Shown: positions 10,878 to 31,476, numbered from the stretch's first letter. The stretch: DNA of 32,000 nucleotides from an uncultured archaeon (GCA_964577555.1 CAZNZM010000006.1:37501-69500), one strand, 5' to 3'. Notes: generated from the letters alone by a model not told the origin. Program-made: numbers and translations.

Positions 10878-11421
10878 AGCCATATTTTTGGACAGAGATG
10901 GAGTAATAATCAAGGATGCAGGGCATTTGAACAAAAAATCTCAAGTGAGGCTTATAAGAGGAGTTTCCAAAGCCATAAAGTTGCTCAACAAACATTATCT
11001 TGTAATAGTAATTTCAAACCAATCGGTTGTAGCAAGAGGCATGGCAACAATCAGCGAAGTTCAAGAAATAAACCAATACATTTTGGGTTTATTATCCAAA
11101 AAAGGTGCAAAAATAGATGCTGTTTATTTTTGCCCGCATCACCCTGATTTTACAGGCAAGTGCAATTGCCGAAAGCCGGAAACAGGTTTATTCAAGCAAG
11201 CTGAAAAAGATTTCAAAATATCAATGGATGGTAGTTATATGATTGGCGACAAGCTAATAGACATAGAGGCTGGAAAAAAAGCAGGTTGTAAAACAATTTT
11301 AGTTAATAATACACTTGGCAACACTGAAAACACTGAAAATAATATTAATATTCTTCAAAAACCGGATTTTGAATGCGCCAATCTTCTAGATGCTGTCAAA
11401 ATAATATTGTCCAATAATTAG
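10852..11421 (+). CDS. gmhB: D,D-heptose 1,7-bisphosphate phosphatase (HAD family)
   Basis: 189 aa. Motifs AIFLDRDGVI, the Zn motif CPHHPDFTGKCNCRKP, and GDKLIDIEAGKKAG. The start is uncertain: TTG at 10852 or TTG at 10867. Both overlap the gmhA 3' end. Confidence 0.85.
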   Translation: MRGNCLKNKAIFLDRDGVIIKDAGHLNKKSQVRLIRGVSKAIKLLNKHYLVIVISNQSVVARGMATISEVQEINQYILGLLSKKGAKIDAVYFCPHHPDFTGKCNCRKPETGLFKQAEKDFKISMDGSYMIGDKLIDIEAGKKAGCKTILVNNTLGNTENTENNINILQKPDFECANLLDAVKIILSNN

Positions 11422-16843: not shown

Positions 16844-18193
16844 TTATTTTGACAGTTTTTGTATTTTGTAAAAAATTTTTTTGAGCAAATCAAAGTCCAC
16901 TTTGTCTGGCAATAATACCTCGACTATTGAAAATGTTTTAATAGATTTTTTTATGATCACAATTTTTGAAAATAAATCTATAACTGCTGATATTAGCCTG
17001 CTTATTGCAATGCCAATTATATGAAGTTTCATAGTCAAAAAATAGCCCGTTAGCACGCTAATAATTAAAACCAGAATTGATGCGCCAGTCAATGCTTTTT
17101 GTTGTTTTAAATTGAAAATAATGGGTTTATATGGCGTATTTAGAATTATTGTGAAGATTATTAGAATGAATATTTTTAGAGCGTTTGCATTTTCTTGGAT
17201 ATTTTTATCCGGAATAGTTTTTAAAAACCAATCAACGCCAAACAGTATTATAAAAATAATAAGCGGAATGGAAAAATAAAAAACGTATTTTGTTGCTCTT
17301 ATTATAATGTTTTTAGAGTTTTTCAATCCGCCTAATTTGGCTACAAGAGGATAAAATATAGTATCAAGCGGTTCAAAGAACTTAGCCAAAATTGAGTAAA
17401 ATTTTGTAATTGCAAAATAAACTCCAGCCCATTTTACACCCAATACATGCTCAACAATCCAAATGGGAATATTGGCTTCAAGGTTTTTTATTTGAGAATT
17501 CAACAAAGCCCATTTGCCATGGCTTTTTAAGGTTTGTATGATTAGCGACTTGTCAGTATTCCTTTCTTTTAATAGAGTTTTTATTTCACTTGGTATTTTT
17601 GTTGCTCTTGCGAATATTGTGAAAATGTCAGACAAAATCATTGCCAAAAAAATCAATTCAACGCTTTTACCAACAAAAAAGAATAATACTGCTAACAAAA
17701 AAAGTTTTGAAATTGAATCAATAATTTGAAAAAAAACAAGTTTTTTAAAATCCGCGACAGTTTCAAACGAGGTTTGATACACAAGCTTTATTCCTGAAGT
17801 AAATATAAGAATTGAAACTAGTTGGATTATTGAAGAAATATTTTTTTTAAAAAAATCAGCAATCAAACCGCTAGAAAAAAAAACCACAAAAAACAAAATT
17901 AAACCAACTGCGATTTGAGTGTAAGCATATCCTTTAAACAACCCAGCAGCTCTTTTAACATTTCCTTCATTTAAATCCTTTGATACATCAGATATTACAA
18001 CTTTTGACAAACCCAAGTCAATTAAAAAAGTAGCCAACGAAAGCCCAGAAACAGCAAGCCCATAAACGCCTAAATCATAAGTGGTTATGGAACTTATAAT
18101 AAAAATAAATATTGCATAGTTTATAGCGGTAATTAGCAAATTATTTCCAGCAATCAAACCCATGCTTTTAAAAATTTCCTTTAAATTACCCAT
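16844..18193 (-). CDS. Wzx/MOP-superfamily oligosaccharide flippase (polysaccharide biosynthesis protein family)
   Basis: About 450-aa polytopic protein with a MOP-like N-terminus: GLIAGNNLLITAINYAIFIFIISSITTYDLGVYGLAVS. ATG at 18193. An alternative GTG at 18202 is the track start. Confidence 0.7.
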   Translation of the reverse strand: MGNLKEIFKSMGLIAGNNLLITAINYAIFIFIISSITTYDLGVYGLAVSGLSLATFLIDLGLSKVVISDVSKDLNEGNVKRAAGLFKGYAYTQIAVGLILFFVVFFSSGLIADFFKKNISSIIQLVSILIFTSGIKLVYQTSFETVADFKKLVFFQIIDSISKLFLLAVLFFFVGKSVELIFLAMILSDIFTIFARATKIPSEIKTLLKERNTDKSLIIQTLKSHGKWALLNSQIKNLEANIPIWIVEHVLGVKWAGVYFAITKFYSILAKFFEPLDTIFYPLVAKLGGLKNSKNIIIRATKYVFYFSIPLIIFIILFGVDWFLKTIPDKNIQENANALKIFILIIFTIILNTPYKPIIFNLKQQKALTGASILVLIISVLTGYFLTMKLHIIGIAISRLISAVIDLFSKIVIIKKSIKTFSIVEVLLPDKVDFDLLKKIFYKIQKLSK

Positions 18194-18205
18194 GTTTTTC
18201 ACAAT

Positions 18206-19169: not shown

Positions 19170-19283
19170 TTATTTATTTTTTGTTGTAATACATTTTAAA
19201 GCTTCAAGTAAAGGTTTTTTTGCACCTTCTGTACCAAAACCAATATAATTTTCCGCTATTTTTCCATTTTTATTGGTATGCAT
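19170..19283 (-). CDS. Hypothetical 37-aa micro-ORF filling the only sizeable gap in this part of the operon
   Basis: Hand translation: MHTNKNGKIAENYIGFGTEGAKKPLLEALKCITTKNK*. The ATG lies inside the last codons of the upstream GT4 gene, and the stop ends 1 nt before the next ATG (19168). It is below the ORF-track size cutoff and has no recognisable family. Confidence 0.25.
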   Translation of the reverse strand: MHTNKNGKIAENYIGFGTEGAKKPLLEALKCITTKNK

Positions 19284-20346: not shown

Positions 20347-21338
20347 TTTGCCATCACTCTTCCCAAAAAACCTGCTGGCAATCCAAGCATAAATGCCGCT
20401 GTCCTTACTTGTATCATGAAAATTGAGAATAATGCGACTTTCCAATCTTTTCCAGCCATGAAAAAAAAGGATTTTATTATGGTTGCAGTCGCAGCAATAA
20501 GCAATATTGTGTTTAATATAAGTAAAATTCCTGCTATTTCGTGTTGTCCTAAAAAGTAAAGTATTGGAACCATGAGCCATTGCAAGGTTCCAAAGTATCC
20601 TGCAATAATTTGCACTTTTATAGAGTCAGTAGTATAGGAATCGCTAATAATCTTGTCAGGGTGTTTGTAATAAAGTTTTACTCTGTAAAAAGCACGATAA
20701 AATTTAATCCAAAAATATTTTATGATTGATTCAGGGTGCGAGTGATAAACTATTGCTTTTGGATTGAAAACCAGTTTTCGTCCCTTTTTGGATATTTTAA
20801 AACTTAATTCAGGGTCTTCGCCAGATGCTTTTGGAAAAGATTCGTCAAATCCACCTGCCTTGAAGAAATCCTCTTTTCTATAAGCTGCAGAGTAACTTCC
20901 TATCCAATCCAATTTGTCTCTTGAAGCCAACATTTTTTTGTATCTTTCTTCAATTTCATATTGCACAAATATTGCTACCAAGGATTTTTGTTTTGTTTTG
21001 TATGCTCCTTGCACTCCAGCTACTTTTTTGTCTGAAAAAGGTTTCAACATTTCTTTCAACCAATTTAATTCAGCAATGCAGTCGGAATCGGTAAAAACCA
21101 GTATTTTTCCTTTTGCAATTTTTGCCCCATTGTTTCTTGCTGTTGCAGGCCCTGAATTTTTTTGGAATACAACTTTCGCTCCTAATTCTTTGGCAATTTT
21201 TGCAGTATTGTCTGTTGAACCATCATCAACTACAATTATTTCATAGTTGCCTTTATAATTCTGTTTTTTTAATGCTTTGATGCAATCCGCAATTGTTTTT
21301 TCGCTATTATATGCGGGAATTATTATGCTTGCATCCAT
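20343..21338 (-). CDS. GT2 glycosyltransferase with C-terminal TM region
   Basis: 331 aa. Motifs SIIIPAYNSEKTI, YEIIVVDDGSTDNT and FTDSDCIAELNWL, with a hydrophobic C-terminal third. Confidence 0.8.
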   Translation of the reverse strand: MDASIIIPAYNSEKTIADCIKALKKQNYKGNYEIIVVDDGSTDNTAKIAKELGAKVVFQKNSGPATARNNGAKIAKGKILVFTDSDCIAELNWLKEMLKPFSDKKVAGVQGAYKTKQKSLVAIFVQYEIEERYKKMLASRDKLDWIGSYSAAYRKEDFFKAGGFDESFPKASGEDPELSFKISKKGRKLVFNPKAIVYHSHPESIIKYFWIKFYRAFYRVKLYYKHPDKIISDSYTTDSIKVQIIAGYFGTLQWLMVPILYFLGQHEIAGILLILNTILLIAATATIIKSFFFMAGKDWKVALFSIFMIQVRTAAFMLGLPAGFLGRVMAK

Positions 21339-21977: not shown

Positions 21978-23468
21978 TCAAGTTACTTGTTTTGTCGCCG
22001 CAGATTTTTTCCAAAAATCAATGTCAAACAAGTATTTTGCAAAGGTTTTTGCACCCATTATAAGCCTAGGAGCTTCTCGCGGCTGTGTTGCTATAAGCTT
22101 CAACCTGCTAATAATATATTCTGGCCTCATATAAAATTCTTTTCTAGCCAAATCGCATGCTTCAACAAGTTCTTTGGCTGAAAGCTTGTCAGTATTAAGC
22201 AAAGTATTGTGCGTTCCTTCAGCGGTAAGCCAATCATCCCAATTTGTAGTAGTTATGAATTTGTTTTCATAAGCCCATTTGAAAGCTTCAGTGCCAGGAT
22301 AAACCATCAAAGGAAAAAATTGTGCAGTATCAGGAGCAAGTTTCTTTGCCCATTCAACAGTCTTTCTAATAGTTTCCTTTGTTTCACCCTTGTTGCCCAT
22401 CATAAAACAACCATGCACAAGTATCCCAGCTTTTTTTGTATCATCCATGAATTGCTCTATATTTTCTATTCTTGTAACTTTCTTTATATTGTTAAATATT
22501 TCCTGCTCCGCGCTTTCAAAACCTACGCATAAAAGCCTGCACCCGGCTTTTTTCATCCATTGCAACGTTTCAAGATCAACGTCAGCGCGAGAATTACAAG
22601 TCCAAGTTACTTTAAGGCCTCTATTCACAACTTCCTTGCAAATCTCTATTGTCCTTTGCTTGTCTTGAGTAAGAGTATCATCTTCAATCATAATGTCCTT
22701 TACATATGGCAAATTTTTTGTTATCCATTCGAATTCATCAACAACATTTTTGACGCTTCTTGCCCTGTAAAAATGACCTGTCAAAGTTTGAGGCCATTTA
22801 CAAAAAGTGCACCTGAATTTACAACCCCTGCCTGTTATTATTGTGACTTCCGGATAAAGAACCGAAGGATAAAAATAATCCTTTATTTTCAAGTGCCTGT
22901 TATAAACTTCACTGACAAAAGGCATTTGATCCAAATCAGGTTGCTCAATAGGAGGCATATTCGGAGTGAACTTTATTTTGCCATCAGAATCCCTGTAAGT
23001 CAAACCCAACACATTATCCAACGGCTTGTTTTTTTCCAACGCCTCGGCAAGGTCCCTTACAATAAAATCATATTCGCCTCTTGCAACAGCATCTATTTTT
23101 TTGCTCGCATTAAGACTCATTTCAGGCAACGCGCTTACATGGGTTCCAACCATCAACGTAAAAGCTTCAGGCAATGCATCTTTAAGCTTCTCAACAACTT
23201 TAACATCATTATTAAACGACGCAGTCACGGAATCCACTACAATAAGCCTTGGCTTCCAATTATTCACTATTTCAATTACATCTTCAATTTTCATTCCAGA
23301 AGCTGGACAATCAAGAAGTTTCACATCATGCCCGGCTTTTTCTAACACTCCTGTAGCATAACCCATCCAAATAGGATAATAAACACAACCTCCTTTTGAA
23401 ATCGCAGGACTCCTGCTTGTCCTTGAAAACCTGTAAAGAAAAGGAGGATTCAACATCAATACTCTCAT
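21978..23468 (-). CDS. B12-binding-domain radical SAM enzyme (class B radical SAM, methylase-like)
   Basis: About 496 aa from ATG 23468 (MRVLMLNPPF...). The N-terminal B12-like domain contains LMLNPPFLYRFSRTSRSPAISKGGCVYYPIWMGYATGVLEKAGHDVKLLD. Radical SAM motif GRGCKFRCTFCKW (CxxxCxxC), followed by a TIM-barrel-like region with VGFESAEQ. Confidence 0.85.
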   Translation of the reverse strand: MRVLMLNPPFLYRFSRTSRSPAISKGGCVYYPIWMGYATGVLEKAGHDVKLLDCPASGMKIEDVIEIVNNWKPRLIVVDSVTASFNNDVKVVEKLKDALPEAFTLMVGTHVSALPEMSLNASKKIDAVARGEYDFIVRDLAEALEKNKPLDNVLGLTYRDSDGKIKFTPNMPPIEQPDLDQMPFVSEVYNRHLKIKDYFYPSVLYPEVTIITGRGCKFRCTFCKWPQTLTGHFYRARSVKNVVDEFEWITKNLPYVKDIMIEDDTLTQDKQRTIEICKEVVNRGLKVTWTCNSRADVDLETLQWMKKAGCRLLCVGFESAEQEIFNNIKKVTRIENIEQFMDDTKKAGILVHGCFMMGNKGETKETIRKTVEWAKKLAPDTAQFFPLMVYPGTEAFKWAYENKFITTTNWDDWLTAEGTHNTLLNTDKLSAKELVEACDLARKEFYMRPEYIISRLKLIATQPREAPRLIMGAKTFAKYLFDIDFWKKSAATKQVT

Positions 23469-23564
23469 TTTTTTCACCAACCAAATAATGCTTATTTTCA
23501 AATTTAATTATTATCACGTGTTAATTCCAATTATTTTTCAGTTTAAAAATCCTTTTTGGTACAA

Positions 23565-24281
23565 TCATTTTTCCCCAACAATTTTGTTTGCCCTCAACAA
23601 TTCATCAAAAGAACCAGCATCAAGCCATTCTTTTTCAAGCATGCTTGCAACAATGCTTCCGTCTTTTATATAATAATTGTGAATATCAGATATTTCAAGT
23701 TCGCCTCTGGCACTAGGTTTTAATGTTTTAATAACCTCAAAAACATGAGGCGTATACATATAAACTCCTACAACCACCAAATTAGTTGGCGGGTCTTTCG
23801 GCTTTTCAACCACTTTGACAACCTTACCCTTTTCAACTACAGCTACTCCAGCTTTTGCAGCTTCTTCCCTTGTAGTCTCATACAACAATATCCTTGCTTT
23901 TTCTTTCCCTCTTTCAAATTCCCTTACAAAAGGACTTATATCATCAAACAATATGTTGTCCCCGTTTATTGAAACAAACTTGTCATTACCAACAAATTCT
24001 TTTGCAAGCCCTATTGCTTGCGGCAAACCGCCAGCCTCATCCTGCACTCTGAAAGTAAAATTCACTCCAAAATCCTTGCCAGAACCAAGCAAACTAAAAA
24101 TATCCCCTGCATGATTAGTACCAGTAATAACAAGTATTTCCTTTATACCAGCTTTTTTTAGGGTTTCAATAGGATAATAAATCATCGGTTTATTGTAAAT
24201 TGGCAACAAATGCTTGTTAGTCACGTTTGTCAAAGGCCTCAACCTTGAACCAGTGCCACCAGCAAGAATAACACCTTTCAT
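23565..24281 (-). CDS. Short-form sugar-1-phosphate nucleotidyltransferase (glucose-1-phosphate thymidylyltransferase-like; could also serve as the missing heptose-1-P guanylyltransferase)
   Basis: 238 aa from ATG 24281, with GGTGG 5 nt upstream. Motifs MKGVILAGGTGSRLRPLT, GGLPQAIGLA and RGELEISD. Directly downstream of rfbB. Confidence 0.75.
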   Translation of the reverse strand: MKGVILAGGTGSRLRPLTNVTNKHLLPIYNKPMIYYPIETLKKAGIKEILVITGTNHAGDIFSLLGSGKDFGVNFTFRVQDEAGGLPQAIGLAKEFVGNDKFVSINGDNILFDDISPFVREFERGKEKARILLYETTREEAAKAGVAVVEKGKVVKVVEKPKDPPTNLVVVGVYMYTPHVFEVIKTLKPSARGELEISDIHNYYIKDGSIVASMLEKEWLDAGSFDELLRANKIVGEK

Positions 24282-24297
24282 GCAACCACCCAAAAAA

Positions 24298-25260
24298 TCA
24301 TTTTTTTGCTTTTAATGGCTTCCACCACCACTCATTATTTTTATACCATTCAATTGTTTCCACAAGCCCATCATAAAAATTCTTTTTAGGCTTCCAACCA
24401 AGAGCCATTAACTTTGAACTGTCAAGCGAATACCTTTTGTCATGCCCTGCCCTATCCTTAACAAACTGAATTTCAGAATCGCTTTTGCCCATACAAGAAA
24501 TTATTTTTTTAGCAACATCAATATTCCGCATTTCATTCCCGCCACCAATATTATAAATATTACCAGCCTTTCCTTTCTCCGCAACCAACATTATTCCATT
24601 ACAATTGTCTTTCACCCAAAGCCAATCCCTAACATTTGTGCCATCGCCATAAACAGGAATTTTTTTACCTTCAATAAGATTTGTTATCGCCAAAGGCAAA
24701 AACTTTTCAGGGTACTGATAAGGCCCATAATTATTAGAACTCCTTGTAACAACAACATTCAAATCATAAGTATTCGCATAACTCAAAGCCAACAAATCAC
24801 CTGCAGCCTTGCAAGCCGAATAAGGATTACGCGGCTCCAATTTGTCATCCTCACTACTAGAACCCTTTTCAATACTCCCATAAACCTCGTCAGTTGAAAC
24901 TTGAACAAACCTCTCCACTTTGTTTTTTCTCGCAACATCCAACATAACCTTAGTACCCATGACATTAGTTTTGACAAAAGGATCAGAATCAATTATAGAA
25001 TTATCAACATGACTCTCTGCCGCAAAATTAAAAACAACATCACAATCAACCATTGCCTTCTCAACAATTTTTTTATCAGCAATATCACCCTTCACAAACT
25101 CATAATTTTTTTTCTTCTCCAAACCCCTCAAATTATCCAAATTGCCGGCATAAGTCAACAAATCCAAGTTTACCACTTTTATACTTGTATTTTCAACAAG
25201 CATCCTGACAAAATTCGAACCAATGAATCCGCAACCGCCAGTTACAAGAACTTTTTCCAT
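24298..25260 (-). CDS. rfbB: dTDP-glucose 4,6-dehydratase
   Basis: 320 aa. Motifs TGGCGFIGSNFV, LTYAGNLDNL, FAAESHVDNSI, STDEVYG, YSACKAAGD, SNNYGPYQYPEK, NVRDWLWVKD, RAGHDKRYSLD and NNEWWW. Confidence 0.9.
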   Translation of the reverse strand: MEKVLVTGGCGFIGSNFVRMLVENTSIKVVNLDLLTYAGNLDNLRGLEKKKNYEFVKGDIADKKIVEKAMVDCDVVFNFAAESHVDNSIIDSDPFVKTNVMGTKVMLDVARKNKVERFVQVSTDEVYGSIEKGSSSEDDKLEPRNPYSACKAAGDLLALSYANTYDLNVVVTRSSNNYGPYQYPEKFLPLAITNLIEGKKIPVYGDGTNVRDWLWVKDNCNGIMLVAEKGKAGNIYNIGGGNEMRNIDVAKKIISCMGKSDSEIQFVKDRAGHDKRYSLDSSKLMALGWKPKKNFYDGLVETIEWYKNNEWWWKPLKAKK

Positions 25261-25310
25261 ATAGTCACTTAAAAAAATACTAATTCAATTAAATAAATCC
25301 TTTTGGTTCA

Positions 25311-26237
25311 TTATTTTTCACCAACATAATTCAAATACCACTGAACAGTCCTTTTTATTCCTTCACCAATCATTACTTTTGGCTTAAAACCCAAAACCTT
25401 ATTAGCCTTTGAAATATTAGCCGAAAACTTGACAACCTCCCCCTTTCTATTATCCCTAAAAATAATTGGCACCTTAAAACCAAACTCCCTCTGCACCAAA
25501 TCAGCCACCTTAGAAAGCTTCACACTCCTGCCAGAAGAAATATTATACACAGAATTCTTGGCACGTTCAAAATTCTCCACACACTTCAAAACTCCATCAA
25601 CAGCATCATCAATATAAGTAAAATCAAGCTCTTTATCCTTGCCATAAATCACCAAACTCTTGTCACTCTTGCAATTCCTAATAAAAGTCGGAACAAGCCT
25701 GTCACTCTTATCATACATTCCATAAACATTTGAAAACCTAGTAATAATAAAATCAATCCCATAACACCTTTTATAAGACTGAACCAAAGCCTCGCCAGCT
25801 ATTTTTGAAGCACTATAAGGACTCTCACAATAATCAATACTCACCTGATTCTCGCCAAGCTTCCCATTTTTAACATTACCATATATTTCCCTGCTAGACG
25901 CAAAAATAAATCCAGGCACTTTCCTTTGCCTGCAAAATTCAAGAGCATTAAAAACAGTTTTCATATTATCAAGCGCAAGCTCAGGCTCAACCACCAAATT
26001 ATAAACCCTCGCATTTGCCGCCAAATGTATAAAAAAATCCACATCACCCGGCAATTTCTCAAAAAACTTTTTTTCACGCATGTCAGAAATCATGGTTTTG
26101 GAATTAACTTGGGCACTCCATTCATTAGGCTTCAAATCAAGCCCAATCACTTCATAACCTTCTGAAATCAAACTTTCGCATAAACGAGTTCCAATAGTAC
26201 CACTACTGCCGCTTACAACAATTTTTTTAGTCTTCAT
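25311..26237 (-). CDS. Extended SDR, NAD(P)-dependent nucleotide-sugar epimerase/reductase
   Basis: About 308 aa from ATG 26237; the track start at 26249 is TTG. Motifs VSGSSGTIGTRL, ASSREIYG and YSASK. It may reduce or epimerise the RfbB product. No rmlC or rmlD was recognised in the window. Confidence 0.7.
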   Translation of the reverse strand: MKTKKIVVSGSSGTIGTRLCESLISEGYEVIGLDLKPNEWSAQVNSKTMISDMREKKFFEKLPGDVDFFIHLAANARVYNLVVEPELALDNMKTVFNALEFCRQRKVPGFIFASSREIYGNVKNGKLGENQVSIDYCESPYSASKIAGEALVQSYKRCYGIDFIITRFSNVYGMYDKSDRLVPTFIRNCKSDKSLVIYGKDKELDFTYIDDAVDGVLKCVENFERAKNSVYNISSGRSVKLSKVADLVQREFGFKVPIIFRDNRKGEVVKFSANISKANKVLGFKPKVMIGEGIKRTVQWYLNYVGEK

Positions 26238-26466
26238 AAAAAAAACCAAAATTCAAATAATTCTCATAACATCATTTTAATAAAACTTTTAAAAAAAGGT
26301 TCTAACACGAATAACACCTGCCAACGCCCCACAATTACATTATTCTACTATAATTTTTTAGCTCAAATTATTTTGTTTTCATTTTGTTTTTTCACTAAAT
26401 TTTATTTGTTATTCTAAATCAACCAAAAAATCGGTGAAATATTTATTAAAAAAGGTTTTATTTTTT

Positions 26467-27366
26467 TTAAATCACTAATTTTTTGAATTTTATGCTTCCA
26501 ATGAGCCTGCTTGTTTTGACTGCCAAGACATAGCAGATTCCTAATAGTATTATTAACAAGGCGTGCAAAGGAGAGTTGTTTTTGATAAAGGTTATTCCTC
26601 TTGGACTGCTTAACTCAAATTTTCCGTTGTTTTTCCATAATCCAGTGGCTACTTTAAAGTCTTCTAATGGATCAACAAGGAAGCCATATTTTATGTGAAG
26701 AAAGTTTTCGCAAACTTTTGTAGGATGTTTTTTGTAAAGCAGGACATCGTTTTGGTGGTATTCAAGTCTTTTCAGTACGTACTTTAAGAAGTTAAAAACG
26801 CCTTTCGGCTTGGTTTCTTTGTGGTCGTGGAAATATTTTGCTTCAACTTGCTTGAATTCATACCCCAAATCCATTATTTTGAATGTCAAATCCGTGTCTT
26901 CTCTGTAATATTTGTATTCTGGGTCGTAACCACCTACTTTGGTTAAAAGATATCGTCTGAATGCTGTTGAGGTTCCTCCGTATCCGCCATAAGAACTTAC
27001 AACTCCGACTTTTTGCGAATCAAATCCGGATACTATTTTTTCTAGCCAATCTTTTTCCGCAATGCAATCATGATCCATATTAACTACTATTTCGTATTTT
27101 GATTTTTTTATTCCAAGGTTTCTTGCAGCGCAAACCCCAGAGTTTTTTTGATGAAACACTTTCAACTTGTTTTTGTCTTTGTGTTCAGCGTAGTTGTCCA
27201 ATAATTCAGAGGTTCCGTCAGTGCTTCCGTCATCAACCACTATTATTTCGTATTTTCCATTAAATTTTTGTGATAGTAAGCTGTCCAAAACCCTTTCAAT
27301 TGTTTTTTTTCCGTTATATGTGGCTACTACAATGCTTGCATTCATGTTTTTTGTCATCAAATTCAC
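26467..27366 (-). CDS. GT2 glycosyltransferase with a single C-terminal hydrophobic segment
   Basis: 299 aa. Motifs SIVVATYNGKKTI, YEIIVVDDGSTDGT and MDHDCIAEKDWL. GTG start in a GTGA overlap with the Alg13-like stop. Alternative ATGs at 27357 and 27345. Confidence 0.8.
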   Translation of the reverse strand: MNLMTKNMNASIVVATYNGKKTIERVLDSLLSQKFNGKYEIIVVDDGSTDGTSELLDNYAEHKDKNKLKVFHQKNSGVCAARNLGIKKSKYEIVVNMDHDCIAEKDWLEKIVSGFDSQKVGVVSSYGGYGGTSTAFRRYLLTKVGGYDPEYKYYREDTDLTFKIMDLGYEFKQVEAKYFHDHKETKPKGVFNFLKYVLKRLEYHQNDVLLYKKHPTKVCENFLHIKYGFLVDPLEDFKVATGLWKNNGKFELSSPRGITFIKNNSPLHALLIILLGICYVLAVKTSRLIGSIKFKKLVI

Positions 27367-27860
27367 TTTTCCAAATAATTTTCAATTATTTTTATTATGT
27401 TTCCATTTTCAAGTTTTTTCGGCTTGAATTCTTTCGCTTTTTCAATTGTTTCTTCAAGTTTGCTTGTTTCAGTTACTGCAATGCCAAGCCCTTTTTCTTG
27501 TATTGCTTTTGCGAGTTCTAATTGATGGTTGTCTGTGTGCTCTTCAAGATTTTTCATTCTTGGCACTACAATAATTTTTTTTTCCATTCTGTTGCATGCT
27601 CCAAATGTTCCGGCACCAGCGTGCATTATGACAATATCAGCCCAACTTATTTTTTTTGAAAATTCTTCAATTCCTAAAAAATTTTTGTGTTTGAAATTAT
27701 TTGGTTTGTAGTCGGAAAATCCTGTTTGGGCAAAAATTTCATATTTTCCTTTTTGGGCTATTTTTTCCATTTCTTTTATGAGCCTGTTGAATTGTTGAGG
27801 GTGTGTTCCCACAGTCACGAATATTTTCAATCTTTTTTCTTTTTGGTTTTCTTTTTTCAA
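27363..27860 (-). CDS. Alg13-like / PssE-Cps14G-like glycosyltransferase catalytic subunit (Glyco_tran_28_C)
   Basis: 165 aa. Motifs IFVTVGTHPQQFNRL, IVIMHAGAGTFGA and VPRMKNLEEHTDNHQLELA. TTG start with GGAGGGAG 5 nt upstream. 4-nt overlap with the Alg14-like gene. Confidence 0.75.
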   Translation of the reverse strand: MKKENQKEKRLKIFVTVGTHPQQFNRLIKEMEKIAQKGKYEIFAQTGFSDYKPNNFKHKNFLGIEEFSKKISWADIVIMHAGAGTFGACNRMEKKIIVVPRMKNLEEHTDNHQLELAKAIQEKGLGIAVTETSKLEETIEKAKEFKPKKLENGNIIKIIENYLEK

Positions 27861-28315
27861 AAAATACTCCCTCCATATACGCCTTTGGGATAAAATTTTT
27901 CAAGTTCTTTCCATTGGTAAATGAATAAGTCGCAAAAAAGGTAAGCTATTTTGCCGCTGAGCGATGGCTCTTTTATTCTGCAAAAACTTTCAATAAAAAT
28001 TGTTTTTTTGCCAAAAAATTTTCCGACAAGGCAAGCTATGACACCTATGTGTGATCCTGTTGAAATTATTGCATCTGGTTTTTCTTTTTGAATTATTTTC
28101 CAGCAATCAAGAAAGCATTTCAAATATAGTAAAGGGTTTCTGTTTGGGTATTGTGCGAAAAAAACTTTTTCCGATTTTGCGAGGCTTTTAGTGTCTTCTC
28201 TTTCAAACGTTATGAAAAAATGGTTTTTTTTTGTATAGAACTCTTTTAAGCCGGTTAATTCTGAAAGGTGTCCTCCGGCAGAGCAAGCCAAACAGATTTT
28301 TTTTTCTTGTTTCAT
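27857..28315 (-). CDS. Alg14-like / PssD-Cps14F-like glycosyltransferase accessory subunit
   Basis: 152 aa. Motifs ICLACSAGGHLSEL, DAIISTGSHIGV, IFIESFCRIKEPSLSGK and YQWKELEKFYPKGVYGGSIF. I see no obvious N-terminal TM helix. Confidence 0.75.
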   Translation of the reverse strand: MKQEKKICLACSAGGHLSELTGLKEFYTKKNHFFITFEREDTKSLAKSEKVFFAQYPNRNPLLYLKCFLDCWKIIQKEKPDAIISTGSHIGVIACLVGKFFGKKTIFIESFCRIKEPSLSGKIAYLFCDLFIYQWKELEKFYPKGVYGGSIF

Positions 28316-28339
28316 GAAAATGAAATTGTTTTTTTATGG

Positions 28340-28350
28340 TTATAAGCTTA
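28340..28350 (-). promoter_or_regulatory. Putative TATA-box element TAAGCTTATAA, 24 nt upstream of the Alg14-like ATG (28315)
   Basis: Minus-strand 11-mer identical to 8076-8086. It lies in the 148-bp divergent region shared with aglB. Confidence 0.4.
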
Positions 28351-28431
28351 ATGGGGCAATTGGCAAAAAATGTAGTGAAAATGCTTTTTTGAGGCTTTTC
28401 AAGGGGATTTTTATTTTTTTGGTTTAATTTC

Positions 28432-28440
28432 AGCTTAAAA
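28432..28440 (+). promoter_or_regulatory. Putative TATA-box element AGCTTAAAA, 23 nt upstream of the aglB ATG (28464)
   Basis: One mismatch to the AGCTTATAA core of the other two sites, with similar spacing to the start codon. Confidence 0.35.
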
Positions 28441-28463
28441 ACCTTATCAATAATGTTTTTGTA

Positions 28464-30473
28464 ATGCTTTTTGAATTGTTGAAGAAAAAGCTTTCAGGCA
28501 GAAAAAAGGAAATTGCTTTTATCGTGCTTGTTTTTCTGCTTGCTTTTGGAGTTCGCGGTCATCTTATTCAGCATCAGCTTTTCTTTGAGTTCGATTCTTA
28601 CTATCATGGCAGAATGGCTGAGTATTGGATTACTTCAGGTACAATACCTGTGATTGATCCAATGGCTTATTATCAATTGCCTGAAGGCGGTTCCAGAATG
28701 CCGAGTGTTGGCTATTTTTTTTGGATTTTTACAGGCACGATATTTGCTGTTGTTTATAAAATCTTGACTTTGAATGCGCCTTACAGCAAGGACGCCTGGA
28801 TAATTGCAATAAAGTTTTTTCCAGCAATTTTTGGCGCATTGATATCTGTTGCAATGTATTTTCTTGGCAAGGAAATGTACGGCAAAAAAACTGGAGTTGT
28901 ATTCGCTTTTTTTGCGGCAATTATTCCAGCTTTTGTTTACAGGACAATGGCTGGTTTTTTTGAAGATGATTCGCTTGGTTTTTTGCCTATGATTATTGCA
29001 ATGGTGTTTTTTGTCAGGGCAATGAAGAATGCTGAATTTAACAAGTCAACTGTGTTGAATTCTGTGCTTGCGGCTTTTTTCATGTTTTTAATGGCTATTA
29101 CTTGGCAAGGATTTGGATTTGCTTGGTTGATTTATCCGCCTTATTTTGTTGCTACTGTAATAATGATGTTTATGAGGCGCGAGCCTATTGAAAAAATAAT
29201 TAATCTTTCCAAAAACTTTGCCGTATTCTTTTTGCTTATGGTTGGTTCGGTGACAATTGTTCTTGGTCCTTGGTGGCTTTCTTTTGCACTTGACAACCTT
29301 GGAAATTATTTGCCGGTCTCTGCATCAAATATAGAGCACCTTTCCACAGGCAGGATTGAAGATAAAAGCGTGTTTTCTGTAAGCATAGGCGAAGAATCAC
29401 AAGGAATAAAGTATTGGTTCAACAAGTATAATGCATTAGTAATATTACCAATTATTGCGATTTTGATTTATGTTGTTGCAATAATTTTAGCTGTTTTTGA
29501 ATATTTTTCCAAGCCGAGCGGAGAAAACGCAGAAAAAACAAAACCAGCAAATATGGTGTTGAAGCGTCCGGGCGATTATGTATCTTTCCTTGTTTTATTT
29601 TGGGTTTTGCTTTGCATGACTATGGCTTATGTAAAACTAAAATATACTTATGTTTTTGGCTTGCCAATTGCTGCCGCCATTGGGGTTGTATTTTTTGAAA
29701 TTTTTCAATGGGTTGGAGAAAAACCGAGTTTTGAAAAGAAATTTGTTGCAGTGTCATTCGGCTTCATGTTCCTTACTGGCGTTGCTGCAGGAACTTATTT
29801 TGTTTCCCAAAACTATCCAAACATTGAAGAAAATACAGGTTGGAAGGAAGCACTTTATTGGATTAGGGATAATACTCCGCCAGGTTCAAAAATATTTAAT
29901 TGGTGGGACGAAGGGCATTGGATTTCATTCATAGCGGAAAGAAGAGTAAGTGCAGACAACAGAAATTATTCAACAAAGGTTAATGCGGAAATCGCAAAAT
30001 TTATTTTGTCTTCAAATCCTGATGAAGCAAAACAAATAATTGACAAGTACGGTTCTGATTATATTGTTCTTGACGAAGGAATGATTAGCAGGCTGAATCC
30101 TTTAGTATTGTATGCTTATGAAACTGACAGTGTAGACCAGGAAAAATTGATTTATTATAATACTTATGCCTTGCCTTGTAATAAGCAAAAAGACATTTCT
30201 AACCAGGTAACTTACAATTGTTCAGGAATTCAAATGTCTGAATCACAATATTTGTCTTTGCCGTCTAAAAGAATAGAACAACCTAATGCGCCACTAGACC
30301 AAAGAACCAAGGTATTTGCTTATCGTGACGAAGAAGGGCAAAAGTTGTTCCTTTTGAATAAAGCTTCTAATGATACTATGATAGCTCGGCTTTTCTTTGC
30401 TCCGGAATCGATACCTTGGGTTGAAAAGGTTTATGACAAGAAAGAAGTTAAAATTTACAAAGTAGTTAAATGA
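28464..30473 (+). CDS. aglB: Archaeal oligosaccharyltransferase, STT3 family
   Basis: 669 aa with a multi-TM N-terminal domain. Motifs in order: EFDSYYHGR (first loop), FFEDDSLGF (second acidic motif), SVSIGEE (SVSE-like, EL5), NWWDEGHWISF (WWDxG at nt 29901-29915), and DNRNYSTKVNAEIAKF (DK-type, compare eukaryotic DNNTWNNTHIAxVGK). A soluble C-terminal domain follows. Confidence 0.9.
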   Translation: MLFELLKKKLSGRKKEIAFIVLVFLLAFGVRGHLIQHQLFFEFDSYYHGRMAEYWITSGTIPVIDPMAYYQLPEGGSRMPSVGYFFWIFTGTIFAVVYKILTLNAPYSKDAWIIAIKFFPAIFGALISVAMYFLGKEMYGKKTGVVFAFFAAIIPAFVYRTMAGFFEDDSLGFLPMIIAMVFFVRAMKNAEFNKSTVLNSVLAAFFMFLMAITWQGFGFAWLIYPPYFVATVIMMFMRREPIEKIINLSKNFAVFFLLMVGSVTIVLGPWWLSFALDNLGNYLPVSASNIEHLSTGRIEDKSVFSVSIGEESQGIKYWFNKYNALVILPIIAILIYVVAIILAVFEYFSKPSGENAEKTKPANMVLKRPGDYVSFLVLFWVLLCMTMAYVKLKYTYVFGLPIAAAIGVVFFEIFQWVGEKPSFEKKFVAVSFGFMFLTGVAAGTYFVSQNYPNIEENTGWKEALYWIRDNTPPGSKIFNWWDEGHWISFIAERRVSADNRNYSTKVNAEIAKFILSSNPDEAKQIIDKYGSDYIVLDEGMISRLNPLVLYAYETDSVDQEKLIYYNTYALPCNKQKDISNQVTYNCSGIQMSESQYLSLPSKRIEQPNAPLDQRTKVFAYRDEEGQKLFLLNKASNDTMIARLFFAPESIPWVEKVYDKKEVKIYKVVK

Positions 30474-30474
30474 G

Positions 30475-31476
30475 GTGGCTACTTTGCAACTTTTTTTATC
30501 TCTTACAATTATTTTTCTTTCATCATTTTTTTTGACTTATTTTGTCACGCCGATAATGATAAGGAAAATTTCCAAGCGAGGAATTGTCGGAAAAGATATG
30601 AACAAAATCGGAAAACCAAAAGTGGCAGAGATGGGCGGAATAAGCCTGATGCTTGGAATTTCTTTGGGAATAATAATTGCTACATTTATTTCAACTTATT
30701 TGGGCATTTTAAAATTCGATTTGAAAATACTTTTTGCATCATTTTTAACAATTTTTTTTGTAGGATTTATTGGGGTAATAGATGATTTAATAGGGTGGAG
30801 AACAGGCATCAGACAATGGCAACATGCTCTTTTTCCGTTGTTTGCAGCTTTGCCGCTAATGGCTATAAATGCAGGCACAAAAACTTTTTTTATTCCATTT
30901 TTAGGCGAAGTAAATGTTGGAATTTTTTACTCGCTTTTGCTTGTGCCTTTGGGAATTACAGGTGCAAGCAATGCATTGAATATGTTGGCTGGTTTTAATG
31001 GACTTGAAGCAGGATTGGGAGTTTTAATAGTTTCAACGCTTTCATTAATATCTTTCATGACTGGGAAAATAGAGGCACTTATAATAGGAATTGCAATTTT
31101 AGCCTCTTTGCTTGCTTTTCTTCGTTATAATTGGTACCCTGCCAAAGTATTTGGCGGGGATTCGTTAACTCTTATGATAGGAGCAAGCATTGCAACAATT
31201 TCAATAATCGGAAACATGGAAAAAGTCGGGGTTTTGATTATTGCTTTGCATTGGATAGAACTTGTTTTCAAGGCGAAGCACAAGTTTCAAAGCCAATCAT
31301 TCGGGATTCCGCAAAAAGACGGCACTCTTGCTCCTGATCCGCGTGGCGGTTCGCTAACCCACTTTATAATGAAGCAAGGAAGATTCACTGAACAACAAGT
31401 TGTTTTGATTTTGCTAAGCGCTCAAACAATTGTTTGTTTAATTGTATTTGGAATGTTTTATTTTAAATTGTTTTAA
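30475..31476 (+). CDS. aglH: UDP-GlcNAc:dolichyl-phosphate GlcNAc-1-phosphate transferase (Alg7/DPAGT1-type, MraY/WecA superfamily)
   Basis: 333 aa. GTG start 1 nt after the aglB stop. Motifs GVIDDLIGWRTG, ALPLMAINAGTKTFFIP, NALNMLAGFNGLEAG and YNWYPAKVFGGDSLTLMIG. Confidence 0.9.
   Translation: MATLQLFLSLTIIFLSSFFLTYFVTPIMIRKISKRGIVGKDMNKIGKPKVAEMGGISLMLGISLGIIIATFISTYLGILKFDLKILFASFLTIFFVGFIGVIDDLIGWRTGIRQWQHALFPLFAALPLMAINAGTKTFFIPFLGEVNVGIFYSLLLVPLGITGASNALNMLAGFNGLEAGLGVLIVSTLSLISFMTGKIEALIIGIAILASLLAFLRYNWYPAKVFGGDSLTLMIGASIATISIIGNMEKVGVLIIALHWIELVFKAKHKFQSQSFGIPQKDGTLAPDPRGGSLTHFIMKQGRFTEQQVVLILLSAQTIVCLIVFGMFYFKLF

What the first reader, a model, noticed from the sequence alone, without database searches (positions are those of the whole stretch)
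27363..31476. Compact divergent locus joining a split Alg14/Alg13 pair to STT3/AglB and Alg7/AglH: a eukaryote-type initiate, extend, transfer core
Seen in sequence:
- An Alg14-like gene (GGH, IESFCR..SLSGK) and an Alg13-like gene (IFVTVGT, HAGAGT, EHxxxHQ) are coupled by a 4-nt overlap.
- They diverge across only 148 bp from aglB, which is followed 1 nt later by aglH.
- AglB motifs (EFDSYYHGR, WWDEG, DNRNYSTKVNAEIAKF) and AglH motifs (NALNMLAGFNGLEAG, NWYPAKVFGGDS) look closer to the eukaryotic STT3 and DPAGT1 consensus I remember than to bacterial PglB/WecA.

Established knowledge: in eukaryotes Alg7 makes Dol-PP-GlcNAc, Alg13/Alg14 add the second GlcNAc, and STT3 transfers the finished glycan. 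From memory, the archaeal chitobiose-forming step has been assigned in only a few lineages, for example the Alg13/14-MurG-like Agl24 in Sulfolobus.

Inference: physical linkage of all four functions in one bidirectional promoter unit suggests a co-regulated minimal N-glycosylation core with a separate-subunit Alg13/14 enzyme.

Caveat: bacterial PssD/PssE and Cps14F/G homologs transfer other sugars.
Basis: partly seen in the sequence, partly recalled or inferred. Interest (0 to 1): 0.7.

Follow-up and report, generated by a model that had tools for sequence, protein, structure and literature searches.

The report
Archaeal N-glycosylation operon with split Alg13/14
This is the conserved core of a protein N-glycosylation gene island from a tiny DPANN archaeon (Iainarchaeota), in which the enzymes that start, extend and transfer the sugar chain sit side by side; it is a real and tidy pathway module, but the "extend" enzyme belongs to the bacterial-type PssD/PssE (Cps14F/G) branch and its sugar is unknown.

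Summary
Alg14-like (27857-28315) and Alg13-like (27363-27860) genes overlap by 4 nt. They diverge across 148 bp from aglB (28464-30473), which aglH (30475-31476) follows after 1 nt. All four pass Pfam cut-offs.

The contig is archaeal (Iainarchaeota, DPANN). The linkage is not chance:
- Of 80 species-level relatives found through AglB, 70 of 72 evaluable loci have aglB->aglH.
- 52 carry the Alg14/13 pair, 40 as a colinear aglB-aglH-alg14-alg13 run and 12 in the window's divergent form.
- The pair is present with one AglH subtype (49/52) and absent with the others (0/12).
- Natural Alg14-Alg13 and Alg13-GT2 fusions exist.

The Alg7-like, then two-subunit GT-B, then STT3 logic holds. However:
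- Both small proteins pass NCBIfam's PssD/Cps14F and PssE/Cps14G cut-offs.
- The Alg14-like protein has no predicted transmembrane anchor.
- The Alg13-like protein sits nearer Lactobacillales homologues than vertebrate ALG13.
- The donor sugar cannot be read from sequence.
- The unit is not minimal: it heads a glycan island of about 30 kb.

Split EpsE/F-like pairs in DPANN were already reported. The phylum-wide operon with aglH and aglB was not described in the papers I searched.

The parts
27857..28315 (-). Alg14-like / PssD-Cps14F-type subunit (152 aa). It is the acceptor-side half of a split GT-B glycosyltransferase, carries an SAGGH16 loop, and has no predicted TM segment.
   Evidence: Pfam PF08660 66.5 bits. 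NCBIfam PssD NF041549 153.7 bits against a cut-off of 110, full length. S12, G14, G15, H16, E109 and R113 are invariant in 34 homologues. No hydrophobic segment found.
27363..27860 (-). Alg13-like / PssE-Cps14G-type catalytic, donor-binding subunit (165 aa). It overlaps alg14 by 4 nt.
   Evidence: Pfam PF04101 83.5 bits. NCBIfam PssE NF041548 139.6 bits against a cut-off of 120. AF2 model pLDDT 90.9; its top Foldseek matches are full-length two-domain GT-B glycosyltransferases (YjiC, OleD, GtfA, MurG), of which it covers roughly half (TMq 0.55-0.66, TMt 0.24-0.35). Best solved sequence relative is yeast Alg13, profile E 4.6e-6.
26467..27366 (-). GT2 glycosyltransferase with one C-terminal TM helix, translationally coupled to alg13. 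Candidate third-sugar transferase.
   Evidence: PF00535 121.5 bits. TM at residues 265-283. A homologue lies within 200 bp downstream of alg13 in 20 loci. It is fused to Alg13 in L049, L057, L065 and L083.
28316..28463 (.). 148-bp AT-rich divergent intergenic region between alg14 and aglB.
   Evidence: Read directly. Promoter elements were judged by eye only and not tested. The divergent layout is shared by 12 related species.
28464..30473 (+). AglB, the oligosaccharyltransferase (669 aa, about 12 TM segments plus a C-terminal soluble domain).
   Evidence: PF02516 and PF22627. Aligns to human STT3A across EFDSYYH/EFDPYFN, FFEDDS/SYDNEG, WWDEGH/WWDYGY and DNRNYSTK/DNNTWNNT. TM count.
30475..31476 (+). 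AglH, an Alg7/DPAGT1-type polyprenyl-phosphate HexNAc-1-phosphate transferase (333 aa, about 10 TM segments).
   Evidence: PF00953 115.2 bits. Best solved relatives are human DPAGT1 (E 5e-16), ahead of MraY (4e-10). It lies immediately downstream of aglB in 70 of 72 evaluable related loci.
21978..26249 (-). Sugar-nucleotide block downstream of the GT2: an SDR epimerase/dehydratase, RmlB (dTDP-glucose 4,6-dehydratase), an RmlA-like nucleotidyltransferase and an HpnJ-like B12-radical-SAM enzyme.
   Evidence: Pfam and NCBIfam: RmlB 446.9 bits against a cut-off of 365; HpnJ 441.7 bits. The same order occurs in L004 and L005.
16844..18202 (-). Wzx/AglR-like polysaccharide flippase candidate (10 TM segments).
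   Evidence: PF13440 63.4 bits. TM count.

Best explanation
The locus is the conserved core of the N-glycosylation pathway of an Iainarchaeota (DPANN) archaeon.

Proposed steps:
1. AglH, an Alg7/DPAGT1-type phosphotransferase, loads a HexNAc-1-phosphate (most likely GlcNAc-1-P) onto dolichyl phosphate. This gives a pyrophosphate-linked first sugar.
2. The Alg14-like and Alg13-like proteins assemble into a MurG-like two-lobed (GT-B) glycosyltransferase. It adds the second sugar, by family precedent in beta-1,4 linkage.
3. The translationally coupled, membrane-anchored GT2 adds the third sugar.
4. Further glycosyltransferases and sugar-nucleotide enzymes of the surrounding island finish the glycan.
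5. A Wzx-like flippase turns it outward.
6. AglB transfers it to Asn.

What is shown: the domain identities, the catalytic motifs, phylum-wide synteny, covariation with AglH subtype, and the gene fusions.

What is inferred: the order of action, the pyrophosphate carrier, the beta-1,4 linkage, and which sugars are used. The identity of the second sugar (GlcNAc, Gal, Glc or GlcA) is left open.
For: - Domains and cut-offs.
- Archaeal origin: every close AglB relative is an Iainarchaeota/Diapherotrites-type MAG, including Ca. Iainarchaeum andersonii.
- aglB->aglH adjacency in 70 of 72 evaluable loci.
- The Alg14/13 pair lies beside them in 52 of 80 loci. 34 have an aglH-alg14 gap of 150 bp or less.
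- The pair is present in 49 of 52 evaluable loci with the window's AglH subtype and 0 of 12 with other subtypes. Fisher P = 1.4e-10, not corrected for phylogeny. In four of those other-subtype loci checked, the downstream ORFs gave no Alg14 or Alg13 domain hit; Pfam-identifiable ones were unrelated genes (UbiA, NYN, Nre) and several had no hit.
- Rosetta-stone fusions: Alg14-Alg13 in L074; Alg13-GT2 in L049, L057, L065 and L083.
- 4-nt coupling of alg14-alg13-GT2 in the window.
- The GGH loop, proposed to bind the acceptor's diphosphate and essential in Agl24 and MurG (PMC8993221), is invariant here.
- The Alg13-like model is a confident (pLDDT 90.9) single Rossmann-type domain whose Foldseek matches are GT-B glycosyltransferases.
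- AglB carries all the catalytic motifs that align to STT3A.
Against: - No biochemical or glycan-structure data exist for any DPANN archaeon. The 2024 review PMC11407970 mentions none.
- The Alg14-like protein has no membrane anchor, so how the pair reaches the membrane is unknown.
- In methanogens the role of AglH homologues in N-glycosylation is disputed (my own knowledge of the M. voltae AglK work).
- The island also encodes two unassigned polytopic membrane proteins. These could be polymerases or other GT-C enzymes, so some of the glycan could go elsewhere.
- The loci were retrieved through AglB. Pairs not linked to AglB would have been missed.
- The covariation is partly a clade effect.
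Confidence: 0.72

Rival explanations
1. One reading: the pair is a true Alg13/Alg14-type UDP-GlcNAc transferase. It makes dolichyl-PP-chitobiose, so the locus is a eukaryote-type Alg7 -> Alg13/14 -> STT3 core.
For: - The pair is always coupled to a DPAGT1-like enzyme, whose family uses N-acetylated sugars. The bacterial homologue examined follows a CpsE-type hexose-1-P transferase instead.
- The best solved sequence relative of the catalytic subunit is yeast Alg13.
- Human ALG13 itself scores 93.7 bits on the PssE model, so the families are close.
- Published trees place eukaryotic Alg13/14 in one clade with the split EpsE/EpsF-like sequences, as sister to Agl24 (PMC8993221).
Against: - Both subunits pass the PssD/PssE equivalog cut-offs.
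- The characterised members of that branch transfer Glc or Gal (PMC8993221), or GlcA (PssDE and WelK; own knowledge and the NCBIfam name).
- Identity is 32% to vertebrate ALG13 against 40% to Lactobacillales.
- The Iainarchaeota+bacteria grouping is the majority in 79 of 100 bootstrap replicates; Iainarchaeota+eukaryotes in 18.
- There is no N-terminal TM segment on the Alg14-like protein.
- The third enzyme is a GT2, not an Alg1-like GT-B.
- Donor-site residues are not conserved even among known GlcNAc users (PMC8993221). Sequence therefore cannot settle the sugar.
Confidence: 0.3
2. The pair is a Cps14F/G- or PssD/E-type hexosyl- or glucuronosyltransferase. It still works in the N-glycan pathway but adds Gal, Glc or GlcA to the first HexNAc. 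The result would be a LacNAc-like or similar core rather than chitobiose.
For: - NCBIfam equivalog hits are above cut-off, and there are partial hits to the fused beta-1,4-glucuronosyltransferase WelK (89.7 and 83.4 bits).
- The nearest named homologues are Lactobacillales, Methanobacteriaceae and Halobaculum proteins annotated PssE/Cps14G or beta-1,4-galactosyltransferase.
- A nucleotide-sugar dehydrogenase is present in the island.
Against: - 'Equivalog' here spans enzymes with at least three different donors, so the name predicts no particular sugar.
- All characterised members act on Glc-PP-lipid, not HexNAc-PP-lipid, so acceptor specificity has already shifted in this lineage.
Confidence: 0.4
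3. The pair, the GT2 and the rest of the island build a separate lipid-linked polysaccharide, such as a capsule, EPS or O-linked glycan. That product is not handed to AglB, and the adjacency reflects only a general glycosylation island.
For: - Outside Iainarchaeota the pair sits in polysaccharide clusters without AglB (L087-L091).
- The window encodes a Wzx-like flippase and two unassigned polytopic membrane proteins.
Against: - The pair lies immediately after aglB-aglH, with gaps of 150 bp or less, in 34 species, and remains beside aglB after an inversion in 12 more.
- The pair covaries with AglH subtype.
- No Pfam-recognisable Wzy/O-antigen-ligase or chain-length regulator was found in the window.
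Confidence: 0.1

Closest known systems
Eukaryotic initiation module Alg7 (DPAGT1) + Alg13/Alg14 + STT3
   Same: - The same three protein families in the same logical order.
- The extending enzyme is split into an Alg14-like and an Alg13-like polypeptide.
- The GGH loop, HAGAG and NHQLELA motifs are shared.
- AglH and AglB have DPAGT1 and STT3A as their best solved relatives.
   Different: - Here the genes are physically linked in an operon.
- The Alg14-like protein lacks a predicted membrane anchor.
- There is no specific tree affinity to vertebrate ALG13.
- The third enzyme is a GT2, not Alg1.
- AglB is a single-subunit enzyme.
- The donor sugar is unknown.
Bacterial Cps14F/Cps14G, EpsE/EpsF, PssD/PssE (and fused WelK) second-step transferases of Wzy-dependent polysaccharide loci
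   Same: - Both subunits pass the NCBIfam equivalog cut-offs.
- Same sizes (about 150 and 160 aa), same gene order, same tight coupling.
- Highest sequence identity among named homologues.
   Different: - The bacterial pair examined follows a CpsE/WbaP-type Bac_transf (PF02397) enzyme in a capsule locus with LytR_cpsA_psr, Wzz, tyrosine-kinase-like ATPase and CpsB genes. By the literature it acts on Glc-PP-undecaprenol.
- Here the pair follows a DPAGT1-type enzyme and an oligosaccharyltransferase in an archaeon.
Sulfolobus acidocaldarius AglH + Agl24 + AglB (PMC8993221)
   Same: An archaeal pathway in which an Alg7-type enzyme and a MurG/Alg13-14 homologue build the first two sugars on dolichyl pyrophosphate before AglB transfer. 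The conserved GGH histidine is present.
   Different: - Agl24 is one fused polypeptide from a different clade.
- The paper does not mention an operon, gene cluster or adjacency for agl24 with aglH or aglB.
- Its GlcNAc activity is demonstrated; here nothing is.
Bacterial MraY + MurG (peptidoglycan lipid I/II synthesis)
   Same: The same two superfamilies act consecutively on a polyprenyl pyrophosphate. The same fold class applies: the Alg13-like model matches GT-B glycosyltransferases including MurG.
   Different: - MurG is fused and only distantly similar (TIGR01133 29.6 bits against a cut-off of 250).
- There is no peptidoglycan context.

Membership tests
PssD/Cps14F + PssE/Cps14G (EpsE/EpsF) split glycosyltransferase family | Both subunits score above the curated NCBIfam equivalog cut-offs | tested here: met
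   PssD 153.7 bits (cut-off 110). PssE 139.6 bits (cut-off 120). Calibration: Enterococcus 117.4, Limosilactobacillus 120.7, Methanobacterium 130.1, human ALG13 93.7.
PssD/Cps14F + PssE/Cps14G (EpsE/EpsF) split glycosyltransferase family | Two adjacent genes of about 150 and 160 aa, Alg14-like first, tightly coupled | tested here: met
   152 aa and 165 aa with a 4-nt overlap. The gene order is the same in 52 related loci and in Enterococcus.
PssD/Cps14F + PssE/Cps14G (EpsE/EpsF) split glycosyltransferase family | Works after a CpsE/WbaP-type (Bac_transf) hexose-1-P transferase in a capsule/EPS locus | tested here: not met
   No PF02397 domain in the window. The neighbour is a PF00953 DPAGT1-type enzyme plus AglB. 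The Enterococcus comparator does have PF02397 immediately upstream.
PssD/Cps14F + PssE/Cps14G (EpsE/EpsF) split glycosyltransferase family | Transfers Gal, Glc or GlcA in beta-1,4 linkage to lipid-PP-Glc | not testable with these tools
   Needs an enzyme assay.
Eukaryotic Alg13/Alg14 UDP-GlcNAc transferase | Pfam Alg14 (PF08660) and Glyco_tran_28_C (PF04101) domains on separate polypeptides | tested here: met
   The Alg14 model matches only its C-terminal half (profile positions 79-170).
Eukaryotic Alg13/Alg14 UDP-GlcNAc transferase | Alg14 carries an N-terminal transmembrane anchor that recruits Alg13 to the membrane | tested here: not met
   No hydrophobic segment in the 152-aa protein. The GGH loop starts at residue 13. 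The feature itself is from my own knowledge of Gao et al. 2005, a reference listed in PMC4973528.
Eukaryotic Alg13/Alg14 UDP-GlcNAc transferase | Groups specifically with the eukaryote (and Thor/Odin Asgard) clade in phylogeny | tested here: inconclusive
   Rough distance analysis with vertebrate ALG13 only. Iainarchaeota+bacteria: 66% of quartets, majority in 79 of 100 bootstrap replicates. Iainarchaeota+eukaryotes: 26% of quartets, majority in 18 of 100. Published trees place DPANN split sequences among bacterial EpsE/F (PMC8993221). No maximum-likelihood tree with broad eukaryote and Asgard sampling was possible here.
Eukaryotic Alg13/Alg14 UDP-GlcNAc transferase | Acts on the product of an Alg7/DPAGT1-type enzyme | tested here: met
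   By genomic context only: adjacency in 34 species, and covariation with AglH subtype at 49/52 against 0/12.
Eukaryotic Alg13/Alg14 UDP-GlcNAc transferase | Uses UDP-GlcNAc and forms GlcNAc-beta-1,4-GlcNAc-PP-dolichol | not testable with these tools
   Donor-site residues are not conserved among known GlcNAc-using homologues (PMC8993221).
Agl24 (crenarchaeal fused Alg14-13 homologue) | Single fused polypeptide | tested here: not met
   Two genes in different frames. One relative (L074) is secondarily fused.
AglB/STT3 oligosaccharyltransferase | STT3 N-terminal domain plus AglB core domain, with the first acidic loop, the DxD/E motif, WWDxG and the DK-region motif | tested here: met
   PF02516 and PF22627. 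Residue-level alignment to human STT3A. The motifs are invariant in three homologues at 45-91% identity.
Alg7/DPAGT1/AglH polyprenyl-phosphate HexNAc-1-P transferase (PNPT) | PF00953 domain with the DD, NxxNxxxGxNGLE and NWxPAK..GD motifs; closer to DPAGT1 than to MraY or WecA | tested here: met
   PF00953 115.2 bits. DPAGT1 62.3 bits, MraY 43.1 bits. WecA model 36.7 bits. The motifs are invariant in 36 homologues.
Alg7/DPAGT1/AglH polyprenyl-phosphate HexNAc-1-P transferase (PNPT) | Uses UDP-GlcNAc and dolichyl phosphate | not testable with these tools
   Needs an assay or yeast alg7 complementation.

The most novel reading that the evidence does not exclude
In Iainarchaeota the split pair is a genuine chitobiose synthase working between an Alg7 homologue and an STT3 homologue.

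If so, it would be the first prokaryotic lineage in which the complete eukaryote-style Alg7 -> split Alg13/14 -> STT3 initiation logic exists, and exists as one ancient, vertically kept operon.

The Lactobacillales Cps14F/G-type genes, which sit next to or inside the Iainarchaeota diversity in the rough tree, would then be derived from such an archaeal N-glycosylation module by interdomain transfer and a change of acceptor.
Probability: 0.25. Interest if true: 0.7.

Novelty: new variant of a known kind. Interest (0 to 1): 0.45.

Why it matters
How the eukaryotic two-subunit Alg13/Alg14 enzyme arose is unsettled. Lombard 2016 favoured a bacterial EpsE/F origin. Meyer et al. 2022 favoured an archaeal one, noting that archaeal split pairs look like scattered transfers of unknown function.

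This locus shows that in one DPANN phylum the split pair is not scattered. It is a fixed member of an aglB-aglH operon, and its presence depends on the AglH subtype. That gives genomic-context evidence that a split EpsE/F-type enzyme serves protein N-glycosylation in Archaea.

It also predicts a pyrophosphate-type lipid carrier in a DPANN lineage. Finally, it offers small soluble proteins and natural fusions that can be expressed and assayed directly. No DPANN N-glycan or pathway has been characterised.

Tried and rejected
- AlphaFold2 of the window's Alg14+Alg13 concatenated, without an alignment, gave pLDDT 38.6. The model was unusable.
No heterodimer model was obtained; only the Alg13-like subunit was modelled.
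- The profile search meant to reach eukaryotic Alg13 was saturated by Iainarchaeota-type sequences.
- The bait search with human and yeast fragments returned only vertebrate ALG13. The eukaryote sample in my distance analysis is therefore narrow, and no Asgard, Agl24 or MurG outgroup was included.
- No solved structure matches the Alg14-like subunit by sequence, either as a single sequence or as a profile.
- Bacterial origin of the contig was considered and rejected.
- I suspected that the 151-aa and 172-aa ORFs after aglH in L031 were a divergent pair. They have no Pfam hit, so this was dropped.
- I checked whether the two unassigned polytopic proteins (714-2336 and 11523-13064) are AglB paralogues. 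There is no significant similarity; the best E-values are 0.02 and 0.015.
- The sigma-70 promoter scanner was not used because the organism is archaeal. The TATA-like stretches in the 148-bp spacer were seen by eye only.
- Donor sugar could not be inferred from motifs. HQ, HAGxG and GGH are shared by members with different donors.

Full report
**Observation.**
- Alg13-like: 27363..27860 (-), 165 aa.
- Alg14-like: 27857..28315 (-), 152 aa.
- AglB: 28464..30473 (+), 669 aa.
- AglH: 30475..31476 (+), 333 aa.

Reading the junctions directly confirms three points. The alg14 stop and alg13 start overlap by 4 nt (TTGA). The spacer is 148 bp. One base separates the aglB TGA from the aglH GTG.

All quoted motifs are in the translations. 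Pfam assigns PF08660, PF04101, PF02516 with PF22627, and PF00953, each above its curated cut-off.

One thing was missed. alg13 is itself coupled, by a 4-nt overlap or a 5-nt gap depending on the start codon, to a GT2 gene at 26467..27366.

**Surroundings.**
The unit is not a compact stand-alone core. Nearly every gene in the 32-kb window is glycan-related. The window holds:
- Five further glycosyltransferases of the GT2 and GT1/GT4-like families.
- A Wzx-like flippase.
- RmlA-like and RmlB enzymes and several SDR epimerases/dehydratases.
- A nucleotide-sugar dehydrogenase and a DegT-type aminotransferase.
- A GHMP-kinase/SIS/HAD heptose set.
- Methyltransferases and an HpnJ-like B12-radical-SAM enzyme.

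The source contig is a 66-kb JGI metagenome contig, and the window lies at its end.

**Whose genome.**
A profile of three AglB sequences was used to scan one genome per GTDB species. It returned 80 loci at 26-57% identity.

Most are labelled Candidatus Iainarchaeum, Diapherotrites, Forterrea or simply 'archaeon'. They include Ca. Iainarchaeum andersonii SCGC AAA011-E11.

Iainarchaeota belong to the DPANN group, kingdom Nanobdellati. The 'bacterial contig' refutation therefore fails.

The best species-level match is only 57%, so the organism has no close representative in that set. A second metagenome holds a relative with 91% AglB identity and the same layout (L004).

**Is the linkage meaningful?**
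I searched all loci with the window's proteins (tblastn).
- aglH lies immediately downstream of aglB in 70 of 72 loci that extend far enough (median gap 28.5 bp).
- The Alg14-like gene lies beside them in 52 of 80 loci. Where the contig continues, the Alg13-like gene is there too.
- 40 of these are a colinear aglB -> aglH -> alg14 -> alg13 run. In 34 the aglH-alg14 gap is 150 bp or less.
- 12 have the window's divergent form. These 12, plus L004, are among the closest AglB relatives (44-52% identity) and include I. andersonii. Two equally close relatives (L007, L016) show no pair but have truncated flanks.

The divergent 'bidirectional' layout therefore looks like a local inversion of an ancestral operon.

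A relative at about 45% AglB identity keeps the whole order. It runs aglB-aglH-alg14-alg13-GT2, then SDR epimerases, RmlB, RmlA, rSAM, a methyltransferase, a GT2 and a GT4 (L005).

**Covariation.**
AglH falls into at least three subtypes (alignment A5).
- Loci whose AglH is at least 47% identical to the window's have the pair in 49 of 52 evaluable cases.
- Loci with the other subtypes have it in 0 of 12 (Fisher P = 1.4e-10).
- In four of those other-subtype loci checked, no Alg14/Alg13 domain lies downstream; the Pfam-identifiable genes are unrelated (UbiA, NYN, Nre) and several ORFs have no hit.

The test is not corrected for shared ancestry, and only AglB-linked pairs could be seen. The pattern still fits an acceptor-specific partnership between this AglH type and the pair.

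**Fusions.**
One species has re-fused Alg14-Alg13 into a 324-aa protein (L074). Four species have Alg13 fused to the downstream GT2 (469-532 aa; L049, L057, L065, L083).

The GT2 carries a single C-terminal transmembrane helix. Neither small subunit has one. These fusions argue that the pair and the GT2 act consecutively at the membrane.

**What family is the pair?**
- NCBIfam places both subunits above the equivalog cut-offs of PssD/Cps14F (153.7 vs 110 bits) and PssE/Cps14G (139.6 vs 120 bits). There are partial hits to the fused beta-1,4-glucuronosyltransferase WelK.
- PGAP already names the Iainarchaeota homologues this way. JGI calls them ALG13.
- As a calibration, human ALG13 scores 93.7 bits on the PssE model. 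Bona fide Lactobacillales members score 117-121 bits. The model thus separates the two only modestly, and eukaryotic ALG13 is a close cousin of the whole family.
- The window protein is 33% identical to human ALG13 over 125 residues.
- In a model-column alignment it averages 44% identity to Iainarchaeota, 40% to Lactobacillales, 38% to Methanobacteriaceae and 32% to vertebrate ALG13.
- A rough distance analysis groups Iainarchaeota with the bacteria in 66% of quartets (majority in 79 of 100 bootstraps). It groups them with eukaryotes in 26% (majority in 18 of 100).

This agrees with Meyer et al. 2022. [quoted passage not shown] Lombard 2016 agrees (PMC4973528).

My sampling was weak: vertebrates only, no outgroup, and neighbour-joining. 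I therefore rate specific eukaryote affinity as unsupported rather than disproved.

**Structure.**
With a 61-sequence alignment the Alg13-like subunit folds confidently (pLDDT 90.9). Its best matches are full-length two-domain GT-B glycosyltransferases (YjiC, OleD, GtfA, MurG), of which the 165-aa model covers roughly half.

By sequence profile, the best solved relative is yeast Alg13 (E 4.6e-6), ahead of MurG (0.06). No solved structure matches the Alg14-like subunit by sequence. A heterodimer model could not be obtained.

**What differs from the bacterial relatives.**
- In Enterococcus the pair follows a CpsE-type Bac_transf enzyme inside a classical capsule locus.
- In Methanobacterium and two unnamed metagenome contigs it sits in polysaccharide clusters without AglB or AglH.
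- One unnamed contig has a PF00953 enzyme 2.8 kb away among Wzy-type polymerases.

Only in the Iainarchaeota loci is the pair wedged against a DPAGT1-type enzyme and an oligosaccharyltransferase. The PNPT family to which AglH belongs uses N-acetylated sugar donors (own knowledge). The acceptor here is therefore probably HexNAc-PP-dolichol, as in eukaryotes and Sulfolobus, rather than the Glc-PP-lipid of the characterised bacterial enzymes.

**AglB and AglH.**
- AglB's best solved relatives are human STT3A (E 3e-15) and yeast STT3 (3e-13), ahead of Archaeoglobus AglB (2e-5). No PglB matched at E <= 1.
- The residue alignment matches EFDSYYH/EFDPYFN, FFEDDS/SYDNEG, WWDEGH/WWDYGY and DNRNYSTK/DNNTWNNT.
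- AglH's best solved relatives are human DPAGT1 (E 5e-16), ahead of MraY (4e-10).

I did not test whether this ranking is typical of other archaeal AglB and AglH proteins, so I do not read it as a special eukaryotic signature. Published work places DPANN AglB apart from the STT3-like TACK/Asgard type (PMC8993221).

**Mechanism proposed.**
1. AglH makes dolichyl-PP-HexNAc.
2. The Alg14-like subunit presents the lipid acceptor to the Alg13-like subunit. Its GGH loop is invariant here. That histidine is essential in Agl24 and MurG, and the loop is proposed to bind the acceptor diphosphate.
3. The Alg13-like subunit binds the nucleotide sugar and transfers the second sugar. By family precedent the linkage is beta-1,4.
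4. The membrane-anchored GT2 adds the third sugar.
5. The island's other enzymes complete the glycan.
6. A Wzx-like flippase moves it outward, and AglB transfers it to Asn.

Domains, motifs, synteny, covariation and fusions are shown. The order, the carrier and the sugars are inferred.

The donor cannot be read from sequence. Meyer et al. note that MurG's donor-site residues are not conserved even among GlcNAc-using homologues. I put chitobiose at roughly 0.25-0.3.

**Novelty.**
Already known:
- Split EpsE/F-like pairs occur in DPANN.
- Databases annotate these genes.
- aglB-centred glycosylation clusters are familiar from haloarchaea (own knowledge).

I found no paper in the searchable library describing any of the following:
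- The phylum-wide aglB-aglH-alg14-alg13(-GT2) block.
- Its dependence on AglH subtype.
- The fusions.

Nikolayev et al. 2020, which surveyed aglB across Archaea, did not appear in my searches, so I did not read it. I file the locus as a new variant of a known kind, of moderate interest. It does not overturn anything. It does turn an unassigned archaeal gene pair into a directly testable second-step N-glycosylation enzyme, in a lineage where no glycan chemistry is known.

Noticed in passing
L049:13497-14957, L057:13615-15213, L065:13666-15192, L083:2878-4287; L074:10700-11674: Natural gene fusions in related Iainarchaeota. Alg13-like is fused to the downstream GT2 (469-532 aa) in four species. 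Alg14-like is re-fused to Alg13-like (324 aa, Gly/Ala/Lys-rich linker) in one.
   Followed up: partly
Alignment A5; loci L027, L029, L032, L033, L038, L052, L054 versus L031, L041, L045, L055, L073: Two further AglH subtypes follow aglB in Iainarchaeota/Forterrea genomes that lack the pair. One has a 13-residue insertion after the DDL motif and QQKKEKP in place of DMNK.GKP. In the four loci checked the downstream genes gave no Alg14/Alg13 hit and those identifiable were not glycosylation genes (UbiA, NYN, Nre). Their sugar specificity and second-step enzyme are unknown.
   Followed up: partly
window 21978-23501 (-), with 23565-25260 (-): A B12-binding radical-SAM protein most similar to the hopanoid enzyme HpnJ (441.7 bits, below the cut-off of 577) sits next to RmlA-like and RmlB genes, with a methyltransferase downstream in the related loci L004 and L005, where the same order is kept. 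This suggests an unusual C-modified or ring-rearranged deoxy-sugar in the glycan.
   Followed up: no
window 714-2336 (-) and 11523-13064 (+): Two polytopic membrane proteins (9 predicted TM segments each, with large C-terminal soluble parts) have no Pfam family. One weakly hits the LA_3751/LA_3752 putative glycosyltransferase family. Like AglB, both end in a KIYK(V/W) motif. They show no significant similarity to AglB overall. They may be GT-C enzymes or polymerases.
   Followed up: partly
window 9269-11421 (+): A GHMP kinase, a SIS-domain isomerase and a HAD phosphatase lie in a row. This is the signature of a nucleotide-activated glycero-manno-heptose pathway and suggests a heptose in the glycan.
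   Followed up: no
window 29955-29975 (AglB residues 498-504, DNRNYST): An N-x-S sequon (N501-Y-S503) lies in the AglB region that aligns with the DNNTWNNT stretch of human STT3A, which Meyer et al. cite as a double sequon. D498, N499, R500, N501, S503 and K505 are invariant in the three aligned Iainarchaeota AglBs.
   Followed up: no
L042, L048 (labelled Thaumarchaeota); L050, L061 (Chloroflexi/Chloroflexota); L080 (Falkowbacteria): Contigs carrying an Iainarchaeota-type AglB, most with the adjacent aglH-alg14-alg13 genes (L061 is cut short after aglB), are deposited under unrelated taxon names. This is probably mis-binning in those MAGs.
   Followed up: no
Neighbour-joining tree of Alg13-like sequences: The Lactobacillales Cps14G/EpsF-type clade came out beside Iain_L040 and inside the broad Iainarchaeota assemblage. 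This hints at an interdomain transfer whose direction is open. The tree is crude and has no bootstrap values on its branches.
   Followed up: no
L091:5567-10403: An unnamed metagenome contig has the split pair 2.8 kb from a PF00953 (WecA/MraY-family) enzyme, among two Wzy_C polymerase-like genes. Pairing of this glycosyltransferase with a HexNAc-1-P transferase may therefore also occur outside N-glycosylation.
   Followed up: no
window 19270-20580 (-) versus 20343-21338 (-): The mechanical ORF for the GT4-family gene (436 aa) overlaps the upstream GT2 by 238 nt. The public gene call for the identical contig is 358 aa, so the true start is probably downstream.
   Followed up: partly
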